Shown here in pieces: positions 9,172 through 17,392 of a stretch of DNA of 64,000 bases. Origin of the DNA: a virus; the IMG/VR virus record IMGVR_UViG_3300036985_004624; one strand, 5' to 3'. The first letter of the stretch is position 1. The number at the start of each line of letters is the position of its first letter. A program made the translations under genes and the position numbers. The notes under the pieces are model-generated. The model was not told the origin of the DNA, made no database searches, and worked only from the letters and a program-made list of their open reading frames with translations.

Positions 9172-9246
9172 TGGCGCCTTGTGTGGGAATCGAACCCACT
9201 GCCAGGAAGTTTAGAAGTTCTTGCTCTACCGTTGAGCTAACAAGGC
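9172..9246 (-). tRNA. amber suppressor tRNA (anticodon CTA)
   Basis: GCCTTGT/ACAAGGC-G-CCA, canonical D and T arms, loop TT-CTA-AA by register, anticodon stem only 3 bp. Confidence 0.75.
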
Positions 9247-9257
9247 GTGTATGTGCC

Positions 9258-9286
9258 ATTTTACTGGCACATTTGATTATTGTCAA
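9258..9286 (-). promoter_or_regulatory. sigma70 promoter for suppressor tRNA, palindrome over -10
   Basis: TTGACA-17-TAAAAT, GTGCCA-GTAAAA-TGGCAC. Confidence 0.7.
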
Positions 9287-9609
9287 TCGGCTGGCCTATA
9301 TAGATCCCATTTCTGAAAGAATGCTCGCTCTTTCGGATTAATTACAGGTCTTGTGCAAATTGCACTATAACCCATATCATTATCGGGCTCGTGAAATATA
9401 TAATATCCAATTCCGGCTCGACTAATCCTTGCAGCAATATCTAATAAATCGTCCTCATCTTTAGCAGATAATAAAATCAAACTCGATGTATGTTTATGCT
9501 CCCATTGATTTAATAATTTACCTGCTTCATGACAAGCATGGCCGAGTTGCACAATCTTTTGAGCGGGTGAAATATCCTCCCGGATAAAAGTATAGATATA
9601 CGAGTTCAC
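9283..9609 (-). CDS. peptidyl-tRNA hydrolase Pth2-like
   Basis: FIREDISPAQKIVQLGHA..FHEPD..SAICTRP. Confidence 0.8.
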   Translation of the reverse strand: MNSYIYTFIREDISPAQKIVQLGHACHEAGKLLNQWEHKHTSSLILLSAKDEDDLLDIAARISRAGIGYYIFHEPDNDMGYSAICTRPVINPKERAFFQKWDLYRPAD

Positions 9610-9977
9610 TTGAATAACTCCCTTAATGTTGTAATAAGATCCGTAGTAAAAATAACACCATATTTTTTACCTAATGAATCAATTCGTTCTTTTTCTTCTG
9701 CTGCGCGTCTTGCTTTGCGTTCAGGTGTATCTTGTGGCCACATTGCATTAGTGTCGCGTATTTGCCATTGTGCATCTTTTTTTGCTATGTCAAAAGAATT
9801 CCAAGGCGATATACCGTTTGCTAATTTATTTGCTGATTGAATTGGACTAAAACCGCGTTTAAGGTCGTGTCCGCGAAGAGCGTTGTAAAAAATGTGATCC
9901 GTAGCAGTACGGTTTATAATTTTGTTCCAAGCAACGATTGCACTTAGATACTCTTCTTTATTGATAATGAAATTCAT
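9606..9977 (-). CDS. hypothetical protein co-translated with Pth2
   Basis: 123-aa ORF, AAGGA RBS. Confidence 0.7.
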   Translation of the reverse strand: MNFIINKEEYLSAIVAWNKIINRTATDHIFYNALRGHDLKRGFSPIQSANKLANGISPWNSFDIAKKDAQWQIRDTNAMWPQDTPERKARRAAEEKERIDSLGKKYGVIFTTDLITTLRELFK

Positions 9978-10039
9978 GATTATTGTCCTTATAAAATGTA
10001 ATCAAATTTGTTTTCTAACTTACTAACATTTGATTAGTT

Positions 10040-10072
10040 TTATGGCGGACCGTTGTTTAACACCTATTGCAT
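10040..10072 (-). promoter_or_regulatory. leader micro-ORF with in-frame amber codon (MQ*VLNNGPP*)
   Basis: AAGGAG RBS then ATG CAA TAG GTG TTA AAC AAC GGT CCG CCA TAA. Confidence 0.7.
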
Positions 10073-10161
10073 ATTATCTCCTTTTAAGTTGTGAATGTAT
10101 TTATATATTGAGTAGACCCTCCCGGCTCAAATCCGGATATGCTTAAACACTCTTATACTCG

Positions 10162-10245
10162 ATTTTTATCTATCAAGTAGCCACTCATTTCCAAGCGTCC
10201 TCGTACTCAGTATGTAACACACCTCTATACTTGATAGATAAAAAT
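10162..10245 (-). ncRNA. long-stem small RNA candidate
   Basis: Perfect 18-bp inverted repeat enclosing 48 nt. Confidence 0.55.
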
Positions 10246-10360
10246 ACTGATGATACAAATAAATATAGATTGCCTTACCGGTAACGCTCTTGCCAGGCTC
10301 TCTGCTTTCGCAGCGCATTCTTTATGCTACTTTGGTATATATTTATTTGTGTGTCTCAGT
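10246..10360 (-). ncRNA. long-stem small RNA candidate with tRNA-like interior
   Basis: ACAAATAAATATA stem enclosing TAGCATAAAGAATGC and CTGC-GAAA-GCAG. Confidence 0.5.
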
Positions 10361-10378
10361 GATTAGATTATAACGGCC

Positions 10379-11161
10379 CTATCGAACTTTTGCAACCGAT
10401 AATATTTCCGTAAGTGTGGGTGCATAACATCCTAAATGCTGTACTGTGATAGAACTTGCATCAATTGCAAACTGGATAGATTTTTCCATATCTTCAGAAC
10501 TTAGATATTGATAGACAAGTGCAGACAAGAATGTATCTCCGGCTCCACAGGCATCTATTACATCTAATTTAACAGCAGGAAATATCTTATCGTCCCATTC
10601 TACACCATTGCCCCCGCAGGTCACTATTGTGGAGTGCATATCCGGTTTACTAATTAAAGAATTATATTCTAGTTGATTTATTTTAATAATACAACCTGTT
10701 ATTTTGGCTAAATTCTTCTTCTTCGTATCAACAAATATCGGACCACGAAAACGTTCTCTTAACTGTTGTATTAATTCGTAACTAATGGCACCTTTTTCGT
10801 AATCGCTTATCACCACAGCATCATACGTGGATAGATCAAGAGTATCTAAAAATAAAGGGCAGGAAATATCATCGTTATCTATACGAATAATATGCTGTCT
10901 ACTTCGAGTATCTATTAAACGTGTCTTTGTACTTATATTACCATATAAGAAATAAACATTACACCCCAACGATTCTAAATTATTACGAACATTCCCGGCC
11001 ATCCCGGGCTTACGTTCTTCGTGTGTAAATTTAAATACAGGTACAGGTGCTTCGGGGCTAATTCGCTCAACTATGCCATACTGGTATATGTCTGTGCAAT
11101 TATCCCCTATCAATAATACTTTGAATTTTGTTTGTCGTTGAGTACTTTTCGAGCCGGTCAT
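10379..11161 (-). CDS. PfkB-family kinase, HldE/RfaE domain I (heptose-7-P kinase-like)
   Basis: RISPEAPVPV, PGMAGNV, ISDYEKG, DACGAGDTF. Confidence 0.9.
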   Translation of the reverse strand: MTGSKSTQRQTKFKVLLIGDNCTDIYQYGIVERISPEAPVPVFKFTHEERKPGMAGNVRNNLESLGCNVYFLYGNISTKTRLIDTRSRQHIIRIDNDDISCPLFLDTLDLSTYDAVVISDYEKGAISYELIQQLRERFRGPIFVDTKKKNLAKITGCIIKINQLEYNSLISKPDMHSTIVTCGGNGVEWDDKIFPAVKLDVIDACGAGDTFLSALVYQYLSSEDMEKSIQFAIDASSITVQHLGCYAPTLTEILSVAKVR

Positions 11162-11504
11162 AGAATTTTATATGTTTACAGTATTTAGCACCAATAATCG
11201 GCTGGTCGCGATAATCGCTACCTTTAATCATAATATCTGGCGCAAACTTACGTATCAGTTCTTCTAATTCTTCATCAGAGTCAAACACATCAACTCTGTC
11301 TACACATTTAAGTGCGAATAATAATGTGCATCGTTCGTATTCATTATTTACGGGACGGGTTGGGCCTTTTAGTTCACGAACGCGACGATCACTGTCTATC
11401 AATACCGATATATAGGAATCTGGCTGAGATCTTGCAAATTCTAATAAACGTATATGTCCTAAATGAAGAACGTCAAATGTACCATTTACGATTATTCTAG
11501 ACAT
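11100..11504 (-). CDS. nucleotidyltransferase, HldE/RfaE domain II
   Basis: NGTFDVLHLGH, LKGPTRPVN, KGSDY, YSTT. Confidence 0.9.
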   Translation of the reverse strand: MSRIIVNGTFDVLHLGHIRLLEFARSQPDSYISVLIDSDRRVRELKGPTRPVNNEYERCTLLFALKCVDRVDVFDSDEELEELIRKFAPDIMIKGSDYRDQPIIGAKYCKHIKFYDRLEKYSTTNKIQSIIDRG

Positions 11505-15870: not shown

Positions 15871-15912
15871 CTATTACCTATATATTTAATATTTATCGCA
15901 ATATAGTCCATT

Positions 15913-15935
15913 AAAATAGGGACCGAAGTCCCTAT
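15913..15935 (-). terminator. intrinsic terminator after tmRNA
   Basis: ATAGGGAC-TTCG-GTCCCTAT-TTT. Confidence 0.85.
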
Positions 15936-15939
15936 GTGA

Positions 15940-16300
15940 TTGGTTTGGTTACAAGGTCGTTCTACCTCGGAGTTGGTGTTTCTTAGGCAACCATTTCCAT
16001 AGCCATATCGCTATCAGCGAAAGCCGACAGGTCAAGAGCTACAAAAGACTCAGTTGTATATGCGTTTGCATTTACAGATTTGCTTGATTAACGGTCATCG
16101 CCTACCGTGTTGCCGTCTCTACTATCTCACGCAATCGATTACCGGAGCAGGCCCATCATAAAGAAATTACAGACTATATTCGTCCGGAATAAACGGGACA
16201 TATTCTTCTGGTAGTTCTAATATATTCATAAATTTCCTTATGGTGGACCTGGCGAGATTCGAACTCGCGTCTTGCTTGCCTTCATTTCAAAGGGATTACA
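15940..16300 (-). ncRNA. ssrA: circularly permuted (two-piece) tmRNA
   Basis: T-arm plus CAGGTCC-ACCA (16241) precedes GGGCCTG 5' end (16154), G3-U70, tag frame 16069..15983 ANAYTTESFVALDLSAFADSDMAMEMVA*. Confidence 0.9.
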
Positions 16301-16306
16301 ACAATT

Positions 16307-17392
16307 CTATCCTACAAAATTATGAAACAACGGAATAAACACATTTCGCTGATTCTTTTCCTTAAATGCATATGTTTTTGTCATCGCAATAATACACCCA
16401 TTCCTATCATTATTACTTACCTTAACTATACGATCAAACCCCACCGATGTATCAATATTAATATTACTAAGAATATTCGATATTAAGAATCCACTTCCTA
16501 CAGGAATATACATATCTTGATCACATAATAATATCCACTCGTTTGAGGCTATCTTACTACCTTCTAAAAGTGCTTCCTCTGCATTTGTTGTATTATATAC
16601 AGGAATAATCTCTGCGTCAACCTCTGATAATCCCGGAGATCTTCCTACATTAATTTCAAATACAGTAGGATCATTTACTGGAACAATTACACTAAATGTA
16701 ATAGGGCGATTAGTTATAGGCTTAGGTATCTTTGTGCCCGTGACACATATCTGATAACTATATAAATTTCTTTCTGCTACAGCTCGGGATATTCCGCGAA
16801 ATTCTGCTGCATCTATCAATAGATTAGCAAACTTTATATCTTTTTCTCCTCCATTACCCACTCCCACATAGCGTGTAGTTTCTATTGTAGGAAACCATCC
16901 CGAATCTAAAAATAATTTAATTGTTGAAGCAATTGACATAAATCTTAAATGTGTAGAATCGAGCAGACCGTATTCGTCATACGATAAATCGCCTAGTAAC
17001 ATACGTTCTATAACACCTATATTTGTCATGATAGGCATACAACACGATATCCGAGCAGCAGGACTGCTAACTTCATATACAAATTTCATAGCATCTATTG
17101 GATTTGTTAAATGTTCGAGCACATCACCCATCACAACTGCATCATAATTACTGCCAGGTAAATCGGATTCTTTAGGATTATTAAGATCCATAAGAACTAC
17201 TTCGTCCATGCGCTTTATTGCTTGAGAAAGTGACTGTGAACTTACATCGACACCTGTCCATTTTGCAACAGGATGTAAACTCTTAAATACTTCGGCTAAT
17301 CGACCGCCTGAACACCCTAACTCTAATACATTAATTGCTTCTGAAGAAACTAATCTCAGTAATTCATTGTTTATATTGTCATATTGTTTCAA
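16307..17392 (-). CDS. class I SAM methyltransferase fused to GT2-like fragment
   Basis: VLELGCSGG, GDVLEHL, GLLDSTHLRF, C-terminal FSVIVPVND..LCDQD. Confidence 0.85.
   Translation of the reverse strand: MKQYDNINNELLRLVSSEAINVLELGCSGGRLAEVFKSLHPVAKWTGVDVSSQSLSQAIKRMDEVVLMDLNNPKESDLPGSNYDAVVMGDVLEHLTNPIDAMKFVYEVSSPAARISCCMPIMTNIGVIERMLLGDLSYDEYGLLDSTHLRFMSIASTIKLFLDSGWFPTIETTRYVGVGNGGEKDIKFANLLIDAAEFRGISRAVAERNLYSYQICVTGTKIPKPITNRPITFSVIVPVNDPTVFEINVGRSPGLSEVDAEIIPVYNTTNAEEALLEGSKIASNEWILLCDQDMYIPVGSGFLISNILSNINIDTSVGFDRIVKVSNNDRNGCIIAMTKTYAFKEKNQRNVFIPLFHNFVG

What the first reader, a model, noticed from the sequence alone, without database searches (positions are those of the whole stretch)
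9172..10083. Amber-gated micro-leader controlling a Pth2 operon beside an amber suppressor tRNA
Seen: strong AAGGAG RBS then ATG CAA TAG GTG TTA AAC AAC GGT CCG CCA TAA (MQ*VLNNGPP*). The post-amber segment GTCC-GCC-ATAAAA-C-TAATCAAAT can pair with ATTTGATTA-CA-TTTTAT-AA-GGAC, sequestering the AAGGA RBS of the next gene (9977). That gene is coupled to a Pth2-like gene, followed by a CUA tRNA with its own promoter. Known: GPP and Pro-Pro-stop stall ribosomes, and very short ORFs cause peptidyl-tRNA drop-off needing Pth. Inference: only ribosomes reading through UAG (suppressor active or RF1 limiting) reach GPP-stop and unmask the RBS, making this a termination-status sensor.
Basis: partly seen in the sequence, partly recalled or inferred. 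Interest (0 to 1): 0.85.

Follow-up and report, generated by a model that had tools for sequence, protein, structure and literature searches.

The report
Stop-codon-gated leader switch in giant phages
A giant phage that uses the normal genetic code keeps a UAG stop as the third codon of a tiny leader gene, placed so that two downstream genes (one a tRNA-hydrolase look-alike) can probably be translated only when the phage's own UAG-reading tRNA overrides that stop; this gives these puzzling phage tRNAs a natural target.

Summary
On the minus strand the order is: Shine-Dalgarno site, ATG CAA TAG, seven more in-frame codons (VLNNGPP), TAA, then a hairpin whose 3' arm covers the ribosome-binding site of a 123-aa gene. 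That gene overlaps a Pth2-fold gene by 4 nt, and a tRNA(CUA) with its own promoter follows.

In one genome this is no more than chance. The evidence is comparative:
- All 23 distinct related phage loci inspected keep TAG at codon 3-5 of such a leader.
- The peptide after TAG is conserved through synonymous codon switches (Leu TTA/CTT, Ser TCT/AGT, Pro CCN).
- The hairpin arms covary, and the hairpin starts 11-13 nt after TAG in 11 of the 16 loci measured (13 nt here).
- In cultured phages (GAP32, BF, XbC2, RsoM2USA, XacN1, RAS14, Arash, ME3) the Pth2-like ORF itself has TAG at codon 3-4. A tRNA(CUA) was confirmed in seven of these eight; RAS14 was not fully checked.
- RaK2 has neither the TAG nor the tRNA.
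- The GAP32-type homologues of the 123-aa gene carry their own M-L-TAG-...-GPP leader.

Best reading: read-through of UAG by the suppressor tRNA gates translation. Nothing is experimental.

I found no published description. This scan has noted the same module before on other DNA (65 notes, at least 52 genomes).

The parts
10367..10395 (-). Sigma-70-like promoter match (TTGCAA-17-TATAAT) overlapping the end of the upstream kinase gene. It is a possible start of the transcript that carries the leader.
   Evidence: 10 of 12 positions. The number of such matches in the region equals the shuffle expectation, so this is weak on its own.
10108..10360 (-). Three consecutive stem-loop elements in the non-coding gap upstream of the leader. 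They could be a 5' UTR structure or separate small RNAs.
   Evidence: Fold z = -2.68. No Rfam family matched. Elements 1 and 3 recur with changed stem sequences in related loci.
10098..10105 (-). TATAAATA box about 15 nt upstream of the leader's Shine-Dalgarno site. An (T/C)ATAAATA box recurs upstream of the leader in most related loci.
   Evidence: The resemblance to the T4 late promoter consensus is from general knowledge and was not tested.
10078..10083 (-). Shine-Dalgarno AAGGAG of the leader, 5 nt before its ATG.
   Evidence: A GGAG/GGA site at the same spacing is present in all related loci.
10040..10072 (-). Leader ORF ATG CAA TAG GTG TTA AAC AAC GGT CCG CCA TAA (M Q amber V L N N G P P stop). 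The amber codon is at 10066-10064.
   Evidence: TAG is conserved at codon 3-5 in 23 of 23 distinct loci. The post-TAG peptide is conserved through synonymous changes.
9985..10050 (-). Hairpin that sequesters the RBS. The 5' arm (10050-10028) includes the last leader codons and the TAA. The loop is 10027-10008. The 3' arm (10007-9985) includes the AAGGA ribosome-binding site (9990-9986) of the next gene.
   Evidence: MFE fold. The same architecture is seen in 14 loci folded and in the later loci. Arm-swap test: native pairs -16.05 against swapped -9.97 kcal/mol. 13 nt lie between TAG and the first paired base.
9606..9977 (-). Gene X: a 123-aa all-helical protein of unknown function, and the first gene whose RBS is masked.
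   Evidence: no Pfam match; phrog_22448, function unknown; 58 homologues, all unnamed; model pLDDT 91.8; no clear structural match; best Z 3.1.
9283..9609 (-). Pth2-fold gene (108 aa). Its GTG start overlaps the stop of gene X by 4 nt, an arrangement typical of translational coupling.
   Evidence: Pfam PTH2 24.3 bits. PDB profile hit to a peptidyl-tRNA hydrolase, E = 0.005. AlphaFold model pLDDT 85.5. Ranks 1-14 in Foldseek (12 rows shown) are all Pth2/Bit1 structures, TM 0.55-0.75. The 4-nt overlap is kept in the relatives.
9251..9286 (-). Promoter of the tRNA: TTGACA (overlapping the Pth2 stop codon), 17 nt, TAAAAT. The -10 box sits in the loop of an inverted repeat (9272-9251) directly before the tRNA.
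   Evidence: 11 of 12 positions. The promoter and a covarying inverted repeat are conserved in 9 of 12 loci.
9172..9246 (-). tRNA with anticodon CUA (reads UAG). It has a short variable arm, discriminator G and an encoded CCA. The anticodon stem has only 3 Watson-Crick pairs.
   Evidence: A tRNA(CUA) lies within the fetched stretch of 21 of 23 loci.

Best explanation
This is a translational switch whose input is read-through of UAG.

Proposed mechanism:
1. A ribosome starts on the strongly initiated leader and meets TAG at codon 3.
2. If release factor 1 wins, the ribosome leaves 13 nt before the hairpin. The hairpin stays closed, and the RBS of gene X remains masked. The Pth2-like gene, which is coupled to X, stays off too.
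3. If the phage's tRNA(CUA) decodes the TAG, the ribosome translates seven more codons and reaches a stop that lies inside the 5' arm of the hairpin. This melts the arm and frees the RBS, so X and the Pth2-like protein are made.
4. The Pro-Pro-stop ending may prolong this open state.

The module therefore makes these proteins only when, and roughly in proportion to how much, amber suppression is working. It does not recode the phage's other genes.

What is shown by sequence and comparison: the anatomy, its conservation, the translation frame after TAG, the covarying hairpin, and the co-occurrence with tRNA(CUA).

What is inferred: that the tRNA is charged and decodes the TAG, that the hairpin blocks initiation, and what the switch is for. 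My best guess at the purpose is to match Pth2-type tRNA recycling to the extra stalled or read-through ribosomes that suppression creates, or to time these genes.
For: 1. Conservation of the gate. TAG is at codon 3-5 of an SD-led mini-ORF in 23 of 23 distinct loci that carry a gene X homologue. No locus has a sense codon or another stop at that place.

2. The frame after TAG is under protein-level selection.
- Type 1 peptides are [VI][LF][ND]x[GS]P(P). Type 2 peptides are [VI][YF]x[ND]S[ST].
- Leu is written TTA, TTG or CTT. Ser is TCT or AGT. Pro uses all four CCN codons.
- Codon position 2 varies least.
- In L046, GAP32 and XbC2 the leader frame runs straight into gene X.

3. Geometry. The final stop lies in the 5' arm in all 16 loci measured. 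The hairpin starts 11-13 nt after TAG in 11 of 16 MFE folds. The SD bases are paired.

4. Covariation. The inner stems differ in sequence from locus to locus but stay complementary. Native arm pairs give -16.05 kcal/mol against -9.97 for swapped arms, and arms of the two leader types do not cross-pair.

5. Reverse test. Searching 2.9 million viral contigs with the post-TAG pattern alone gave 9 hits. Eight are complete modules with SD-ATG-X-TAG and a gene X homologue; a tRNA(CUA) lies in the fetched stretch of at least four of the five new ones.

6. Direct gating in cultured phages. The Pth2-like ORF itself starts ATG-X(-X)-TAG, with no start codon between the TAG and the conserved domain, in RsoM2USA, XbC2, GAP32, BF, RAS14, Arash and ME3. 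XacN1 has the same opening but also an in-frame ATG four codons after the TAG. GenBank leaves these genes unannotated or truncated.

7. Co-occurrence with the tRNA. Seven of these eight phages encode tRNA(CUA) (XacN1 per PMC5852040). RAS14 was not checked genome-wide. RaK2 has no TAG in its Pth2-like gene and no CUA tRNA among its 9 tRNA matches.

8. Gene X in GAP32, XbC2 and BF, about 20 kb from Pth2, has its own M-L-TAG-..-S-T-G-P-P leader.

9. The genome is not recoded. Standard-code ORFs cover 80% of the coding strand and TAG ends 6 of 69 long ORFs.

10. All 35 gating TAGs are followed by a purine. From memory, this context favours amber suppression (Bossi 1983; Miller and Albertini 1983).
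Against: - There are no experimental data of any kind. Expression, charging and amino-acid identity of the tRNA are unknown.
- The window's tRNA has a weak anticodon stem (3 Watson-Crick pairs, C-C and A-C mismatches). It may therefore be a poor decoder.
- The hairpin is AT-rich and modest (about -13.5 kcal/mol). In this genome alone it is not better than shuffles.
- Loci are phylogenetically related, so counts such as 23 of 23 and 35 of 35 overstate the number of independent events. The purine after TAG is also confounded with the conserved Val/Ile codon.
- An efficient suppressor would also read through the phage's and the host's ordinary TAG stops, which should be costly.
- The biological purpose of tying a Pth2-like enzyme and an unknown protein to suppression is a guess.
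- 2 of 23 loci show no tRNA(CUA) in the fetched stretch (L019 and L047, both short stretches).
Confidence: 0.66

Rival explanations
1. The gate senses release factor 1, or termination capacity in general, rather than the phage tRNA. Read-through by near-cognate host tRNAs rises when RF1 is depleted or inhibited during infection, and this alone opens the switch. The neighbouring tRNA(CUA) would then be a helper or unrelated.
For: The sequence cannot distinguish the two inputs. The logic is the same as prfB autoregulation. 2 of 23 loci lack a CUA tRNA in the stretch fetched.
Against: tRNA(CUA) is tightly linked, mostly within 40-160 nt of the operon, in 21 of 23 loci. It is present in seven of the eight cultured phages with a gated Pth2 and absent from RaK2, which has no gate. 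I noticed no phage RF1 inhibitor, but none was sought.
Confidence: 0.12
2. ATG-CAA-TAG is a complete two-codon minigene, like the bar minigenes of phage lambda, and translation never passes the TAG. On this view the conserved bases downstream are kept only as RNA structure. The minigene acts through ribosome loading or peptidyl-tRNA drop-off, which would explain the link to a peptidyl-tRNA hydrolase.
For: A strong SD plus a 2-codon ORF plus a stop is the minigene design, and drop-off products are Pth substrates (general knowledge). The last leader codons do overlap a structured arm.
Against: The first four post-TAG codons lie outside the hairpin yet keep the peptide through synonymous and two-base changes (Leu TTA/CTT, Ser TCT/AGT). 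An in-frame stop is always kept at the same place. In GAP32, XbC2 and L046 the frame continues into gene X. In cultured phages the TAG is inside the Pth2-like ORF, and in seven of the eight there is no later start codon.
Confidence: 0.08
3. The phage reads TAG as an ordinary sense codon (genetic code 15), at least late in infection. The leader would then be a plain leader peptide and the TAG would carry no special meaning.
For: Phage-encoded tRNA(CUA) is the hallmark of code-15 phages (bioRxiv 10.1101/2021.08.26.457843; PMC9523058, listed). Only 64 kb of a genome probably around 360 kb was examined.
Against: Making TAG a sense codon does not lengthen ORFs more than making TGA a sense codon does. 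TAG terminates 6 of 69 long ORFs, with short extensions beyond it. Whole-genome scans of GAP32 and RsoM2USA find only 2-3 credible genes with an early TAG. The XacN1 authors found no gene extended by read-through. A plain sense codon would not stay fixed at codon 3-5 in 23 loci.
Confidence: 0.06
4. The leader and hairpin are a chance arrangement, or a conserved transcript-processing or stability element with no role in translation control.
For: The single-genome statistics are unremarkable.
Against: The design recurs in every homologue, shows coding-type conservation and covarying arms, and is recovered specifically by a pattern search.
Confidence: 0.03

Closest known systems
prfB (release factor 2) autoregulation through an early in-frame UGA
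   Same: A stop codon placed early in a reading frame serves as a live read-out of how well that stop is recognised. Downstream protein is made only when termination fails.
   Different: Here the stop is UAG. The bypass is decoding by a dedicated suppressor tRNA rather than a +1 frameshift. The regulated products are a Pth2-fold protein and an unknown protein, not the release factor itself. In this window the stop sits in a separate leader that acts through an RBS hairpin.
Leader-peptide translational attenuation (ermC, cat, cmlA type)
   Same: A short SD-led leader ORF overlaps the 5' arm of a hairpin whose 3' arm hides the RBS of the next gene. A ribosome standing at the right place in the leader opens it.
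   Different: In those systems the input is an antibiotic-stalled ribosome. Here the input is whether the ribosome gets past a UAG at codon 3.
bldA tRNA(Leu-UUA) and TTA-containing genes of Streptomyces
   Same: One dedicated tRNA acts as a trans-acting activator of translation for a handful of genes that carry its codon.
   Different: bldA reads a rare sense codon. Here the codon is a stop, so the off state is clean termination after 2-4 residues.
Stop-codon-recoded phages (code 15; crAss-like, Lak and others) with suppressor tRNAs
   Same: A phage-encoded tRNA(CUA) operates in a host that uses the standard code, and suppression is proposed as a regulator of phage gene expression.
   Different: Those phages carry TAG throughout their late genes. 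Here the genome is in the standard code and only 2-3 genes or leaders carry one TAG, always within the first five codons.
RAPP/RGPP ribosome-arrest peptides (ApdA, ApdP, ApcA; SecM RAGP)
   Same: A short upstream ORF ends in x-G-P-P next to a structure that masks the downstream RBS. One relative (L101) has a true R-G-P-P.
   Different: The Arg is irreplaceable in that family (PMC12992588). The window has Asn there, other loci have His, Lys or Thr, and a whole second leader type has no proline. The leader is only 10 residues long and stops directly after Pro-Pro.
bar minigenes of phage lambda
   Same: SD + AUG + one sense codon + stop, and a functional link to peptidyl-tRNA hydrolase (general knowledge).
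   Different: The bar minigenes are complete at their stop and are toxic when host Pth is limiting. Here the codons after the stop are conserved as protein and the phage brings its own Pth2-type gene.

Membership tests
PTH2 peptidyl-tRNA hydrolase family (PF01981) | Sequence match to the family profile above the curated cut-off | tested here: met
   24.3 bits against a cut-off of 23, E = 3.9e-5. This is marginal. A profile of 11 relatives hits a solved peptidyl-tRNA hydrolase (24bt_A) at E = 0.005.
PTH2 peptidyl-tRNA hydrolase family (PF01981) | Pth2 alpha/beta fold | tested here: met
   AlphaFold model with pLDDT 85.5. Foldseek ranks 1-14 (12 rows shown) are all Pth2/Bit1 structures (1q7s, 2zv3, 3erj, 1xty, 1rlk, 1wn2, 1rzw), TM 0.55-0.75 at 14-18% identity.
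PTH2 peptidyl-tRNA hydrolase family (PF01981) | Conserved Lys (GK..Q..HA motif) and Asp (DAG motif) of the active-site region | tested here: inconclusive
   K18, Q21 and H24-A25 align to the GKK..VQ..HA segment, and D76 aligns to the D of KDAG in 24bt_A. They are invariant or nearly so among the 11 relatives aligned in A1. Which residues are catalytic is recalled from memory only; the source paper could not be opened.
PTH2 peptidyl-tRNA hydrolase family (PF01981) | Hydrolysis of peptidyl-tRNA | not testable with these tools
   Needs an enzyme assay. The true substrate could be narrower, for example the suppressor tRNA's own esters.
Amber suppressor tRNA | tRNA cloverleaf with anticodon CUA | tested here: met
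   ARAGORN finds anticodon cta at 9246-9172. Rfam tRNA scores 57.2 bits against a cut-off of 29.
Amber suppressor tRNA | Intact anticodon arm, charging, and decoding of UAG | tested here: inconclusive
   The anticodon stem has only 3 Watson-Crick pairs in the window; relatives have better stems. The discriminator base is A or G across relatives, so the amino acid is unclear. Charging and decoding are not testable here.
Leader-peptide translational attenuator (ermC type) | SD-led short ORF whose 3' end overlaps a hairpin that pairs with the downstream RBS | tested here: met
   the same layout in all 16 loci measured, with 2-4 of the 4 SD bases paired.
Leader-peptide translational attenuator (ermC type) | Structure maintained by compensatory change | tested here: met
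   Arm-swap test: -16.05 kcal/mol native against -9.97 swapped. RNAalifold on the MAFFT alignment recovered only the nearly invariant outer stem, because the variable inner stems were misaligned.
Leader-peptide translational attenuator (ermC type) | Ribosome position in the leader controls downstream translation | not testable with these tools
   Needs reporters or toeprinting.
RAPP/RGPP arrest peptides | Arg three residues before the A-site Pro (R-[AG]-P-P); the Arg is irreplaceable | tested here: not met
   The window has N-G-P-P. Other loci have H, K or T-G-P-P, N-S-P or R-S-P. Only L101 has R-G-P-P. Type 2 leaders have no Pro. The rule comes from PMC12992588.
Genetic code 15 (TAG = Gln) phage | In-frame TAG codons spread through many conserved genes | tested here: not met
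   XacN1 paper. Only 64 kb of this genome could be examined.

The most novel reading that the evidence does not exclude
The tRNA(CUA), the amber-gated leader and the Pth2-fold enzyme may form a closed control loop that sets the level of stop-codon read-through in the infected cell. The tRNA would switch on the enzyme, and the enzyme would in turn strip the suppressor tRNA's own aminoacyl or peptidyl esters, or clear the stalled products that suppression creates. That would be a natural 'suppression-stat', with a tRNA acting as the transcription-independent activator of a small phage regulon (Pth2-like protein, gene X, and an HD-like hydrolase in RsoM2USA, XacN1 and RAS14).
Probability: 0.15. 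Interest if true: 0.92.

Novelty: new variant of a known kind. Interest (0 to 1): 0.8.

Why it matters
Large phages that use the standard code often carry a tRNA that reads UAG. The papers on XacN1 and RsoM2USA state that no target gene could be found.

This module supplies targets. They are two or three small genes with UAG as the third to fifth codon, or a leader with that UAG that unmasks an operon. Gene callers miss or truncate them for exactly that reason.

If the reading holds, it is a natural counterpart of the synthetic 'suppressor tRNA plus amber codon' expression switches. It would also be a UAG analogue of RF2 autoregulation.

It is directly testable, because several carriers are cultured phages of laboratory bacteria. 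It also flags systematic annotation errors: unannotated Pth2-like genes, the truncated family phrog_34073, and a CUA tRNA labelled tRNA-Phe in phage Arash.

Tried and rejected
- Nucleotide search of the locus against 50,697 phage records found no match. Relatives had to be found through proteins.
- Rfam scans of the leader and the upstream gap gave nothing below E = 1.7.
- RNAalifold on a MAFFT alignment of type 2 leaders recovered only the outer stem, because MAFFT misaligns the variable inner stems. I replaced it with per-sequence folds and an arm-swap test.
- tRNA identity: the CUA tRNA is at most 65% identical to any other tRNA of the window (best match tRNA-Gln-CUG), and the discriminator base varies among relatives. 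No amino acid could be assigned.
- Gene X: no Pfam match, PHROG of unknown function, no feature hit in the protein atlas, Foldseek best E = 0.47, and the wide structural search gave best Z 3.1. Its function stays unknown.
- Complex prediction of gene X with the Pth2-like protein gave no verdict (score 0.27, under the mark of 0.32). I draw no conclusion about binding.
- Whole-genome scans of GAP32 and RsoM2USA for 'ATG + 1-4 codons + stop + long open frame' showed no strong excess of TAG (6 and 8) over TAA (3 and 5) or TGA (0 and 5). Most hits are noise and only 2-3 per genome look real. A large amber regulon is therefore rejected.
- The HD-like gene of RsoM2USA and the N-terminal domain of XacN1 ORF364 have no Pfam match, and the HD-like gene has no homologue in this window.
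- RAPP/RGPP membership was rejected for this window.
- The Powers et al. 2005 paper on Pth2 could not be opened.
Full report
**What is in the window.**
All features lie on the minus strand. The order downstream of a PfkB-type kinase gene (11161-10379) is as follows:
- a 400-nt non-coding gap;
- a Shine-Dalgarno site, AAGGAG (10083-10078);
- a mini-ORF: ATG CAA TAG GTG TTA AAC AAC GGT CCG CCA TAA (10072-10040);
- a hairpin with 5' arm 10050-10028 and 3' arm 10007-9985, where the 3' arm contains the AAGGA ribosome-binding site of the next gene;
- a 123-aa ORF, 'gene X' (9977-9606);
- a 108-aa ORF (9609-9283) whose GTG start overlaps the stop of gene X by 4 nt;
- a TTGACA-17-TAAAAT promoter match, 11 of 12 positions (9286-9258);
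- a tRNA with anticodon CUA (9246-9172).

The window looks like part of a giant phage. It carries 31 tRNA genes and a permuted tmRNA. Genes are on one strand and read in the standard code: 80% coverage by ORFs of at least 100 codons. Reading TAG as sense gains no more than reading TGA as sense.

**Is it more than chance?**
Within this genome, no. The leader region folds no better than shuffles (z = -0.70). 'SD + ATG + 1-3 codons + TAG' is, if anything, rarer than in shuffled sequence: 3 against about 9.7. The case rests on comparison with other genomes.

**Relatives.**
Protein-guided searches of IMG/VR and of public assemblies recovered related loci. Most come from phage contigs of up to 385 kb.
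- Every distinct locus with a gene X homologue that I inspected, 23 in all, has an SD-led mini-ORF with TAG at codon 3-5 just upstream.
- A tRNA(CUA) lies in the fetched stretch of 21 of the 23.
- Gene X and the Pth2-like gene overlap by 4 nt throughout.

Two leader types exist.
- Type 1, which includes the window, reads M-x-amber-[VI]-[LF]-[ND]-x-[GS]-P-(P)-stop.
- Type 2 reads M-M-amber-[VI]-[YF]-x-[ND]-S-[ST]-stop.

**The frame after the TAG is translated.**
- The peptide is kept while the codons change. Leu is TTA, TTG or CTT. Ser is TCT or AGT. Pro uses all four CCN codons. Codon position 2 varies least.
- The first four post-TAG codons lie outside the hairpin, so RNA pairing cannot explain their conservation.
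- In L046 the leader has no second stop and runs in frame into gene X.

**The hairpin is selected as a structure.**
- All loci fold to the same design. The leader's final stop lies in the 5' arm and the SD lies in the 3' arm.
- The inner stems differ in sequence from locus to locus but remain complementary.
- Pairing each 5' arm with its own 3' arm gives -16.05 kcal/mol on average, against -9.97 for arms swapped between loci. Arms of the two leader types do not cross-pair.
- The hairpin begins 11-13 nt after the TAG in 11 of 16 loci (13 nt in the window). From general knowledge of the ribosome's mRNA channel, this is just beyond what a ribosome with TAG in its A site would unwind. A ribosome at the final stop must open the arm.

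**Reverse test.**
I searched 2.9 million viral contigs with only the degenerate post-TAG pattern of type 1. This gave 9 hits. Eight are complete modules with SD-ATG-x-TAG and a gene X homologue; a tRNA(CUA) lies in the fetched stretch of at least four of the five new ones. One is an unrelated match.

**Cultured phages show the same gate in a simpler form.**
tblastn with the Pth2-like protein hits 38 phage records, mostly jumbo myoviruses.
- In RsoM2USA, XbC2, GAP32, Serratia BF, Stenotrophomonas RAS14, Salmonella Arash and Acinetobacter ME3, the ORF opens ATG-x(-x)-TAG behind a good SD. It then continues in frame into the conserved domain with no other start codon. XacN1 ORF364 opens the same way but has an in-frame ATG four codons after the TAG.
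- GenBank leaves these genes unannotated or truncated. phrog_34073 appears to be the truncated form.
- RsoM2USA, XbC2, GAP32, BF, Arash and ME3 each encode one tRNA(CUA) near the gene. XacN1 has two according to its paper. RAS14 was not checked genome-wide.
- RaK2, whose Pth2-like gene has no TAG, has no CUA anticodon among its 9 tRNA matches.
- The gene X homologues of GAP32, XbC2 and BF lie about 20 kb from Pth2. They carry their own leader, M-L-amber-..-S-T-G-P-P, which is in frame with gene X or ends on its start codon.
- The window's lineage therefore looks like a fusion of two separately gated genes into one operon under gene X's leader, parked next to the tRNA.
- RsoM2USA_91 also opens M-K-S-amber. 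Its homologue is fused in front of the Pth2 domain in XacN1 and RAS14.
- Whole-genome scans of GAP32 and RsoM2USA find only these 2-3 credible cases.

**What the proteins are.**
- The 108-aa protein has the Pth2 fold. Evidence: Pfam 24.3 bits, a PDB profile hit, a model with pLDDT 85.5, and Foldseek ranks 1-14 all Pth2/Bit1 structures. The Lys and Asp that align to the GK and DAG motifs are conserved. Activity and substrate are unknown.
- Gene X is a confidently modelled helical protein (pLDDT 91.8) with no family and no clear structural neighbour.

**Mechanism proposed.**
Termination at UAG leaves the hairpin closed and the operon untranslated. Decoding of UAG by the phage tRNA carries the ribosome into the hairpin arm and frees the RBS. 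The coupled Pth2-like gene follows. The Pro-Pro-stop ending of type 1 may hold the ribosome there.

Two limits apply to that last point. Type 2 leaders have no proline. The window's N-G-P-P lacks the Arg that RAPP/RGPP arrest peptides require. A stall is therefore optional and unproven.

All 35 gating TAGs are followed by a purine. From memory, that context favours suppression, but it is confounded with the conserved Val/Ile codon.

**Rivals.**
I consider an RF1 sensor, a bar-like minigene, global code 15, and chance. Each is weighed in the rival explanations. None fits the in-frame conservation together with the tRNA linkage as well as the proposed mechanism.

**Known or new?**
- The jumbo-phage review notes PTH2 genes but nothing about amber codons.
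- The XacN1 and RsoM2USA papers report CUA tRNAs without identified targets.
- Four full-text searches found no description of an amber-gated phage gene or leader.
- The building blocks are all known: leader attenuation, stop-codon sensing as in prfB, tRNA-gated regulons as in bldA, and phage suppressor tRNAs. The combination appears new.
- This scan has noted the same module before on other DNA: 65 notes in at least 52 genomes. A later check there priced the bold 'self-contained switch' reading at 20 in 100 for lack of experiments.
- What this report adds for this lineage: the single-leader architecture with a covarying RBS hairpin, the conserved spacing, a proline-free leader type, the separate GPP leader of gene X in GAP32-type phages, and the RaK2 negative control.

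**Limits.**
Everything is computational. The loci are related to one another, so counts overstate independence. Only 64 kb of this genome was available. The complex prediction gave no verdict.

Noticed in passing
window 10108-10360 (-): Three back-to-back stem-loop elements fill the gap upstream of the leader (fold z = -2.68, no Rfam match). Element 1 (AT-rich closing stem around a GNRA-capped hairpin and a GCCTGGCAAG..ACCGG core) and element 3 (GAGTA...TACTC around a CCGG-loop-CCGG hairpin) recur in related loci with changed stem sequences. In L010, tRNA genes are interleaved between them.
   Followed up: partly
window 9251-9286 (-); L001-L022: The tRNA(CUA) promoter is conserved in 9 of 12 loci. 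Its -35 TTGACA overlaps the Pth2 stop codon. Its -10 box sits in the loop of an inverted repeat whose arms covary between loci, ending 4-7 nt before the tRNA. It might be a processing or stability hairpin of the operon transcript, or a promoter structure.
   Followed up: partly
GenBank records: L029 (GAP32), L030 (BF), L026 (RsoM2USA), L028 (XbC2), L048 (Arash), L049 (ME3), L050 (RAS14), L027 (XacN1): The Pth2-like genes are unannotated or truncated because of the TAG at codon 3-4. phrog_34073 looks like the truncated form. In Arash the tRNA(CUA) is labelled tRNA-Phe.
   Followed up: yes
RsoM2USA about 68298 (-), in L033/L026; XacN1 ORF364 (L027 1970-2809); RAS14 (L050): A third early-amber gene: RsoM2USA_91 opens M-K-S-TAG. 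It carries an H..HDIGKP-type motif (HD-like by eye, no Pfam hit). In XacN1 and RAS14 its homologue is fused in front of the Pth2 domain, behind a single M-K-TAG opening.
   Followed up: partly
L022 2927-2998: ARAGORN calls a second odd tRNA with anticodon UUA (reads UAA) immediately after the tRNA(CUA).
   Followed up: no
L001 3365-3439: The closest relative's suppressor tRNA is called with an 8-nt anticodon loop (anticodon 'ctaa'). The window's own tRNA has C-C and A-C mismatches in the anticodon stem.
   Followed up: partly
window 10379-11504 (-): A cytidylyltransferase-like gene and a PfkB-kinase gene (a split RfaE/HldE-like pair) sit between the conserved 300-aa gene and the module. They are absent at that place in the closest relative, L001, so this is a lineage-specific insertion.
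   Followed up: no
window 15892-16333 (-); L002, L003, L010: A permuted (two-piece) tmRNA of the betaproteobacterial type with a 28-residue tag. In several relatives a tmRNA lies about 2 kb upstream of the amber module. With the Pth2-like gene it forms a cluster of ribosome-rescue functions.
   Followed up: no
L046 980-1300; L086 1128-1263: In some loci the tRNA(CUA) lies directly upstream of the leader (30-140 nt) instead of downstream of Pth2. The linkage is kept while the gene order changes.
   Followed up: partly
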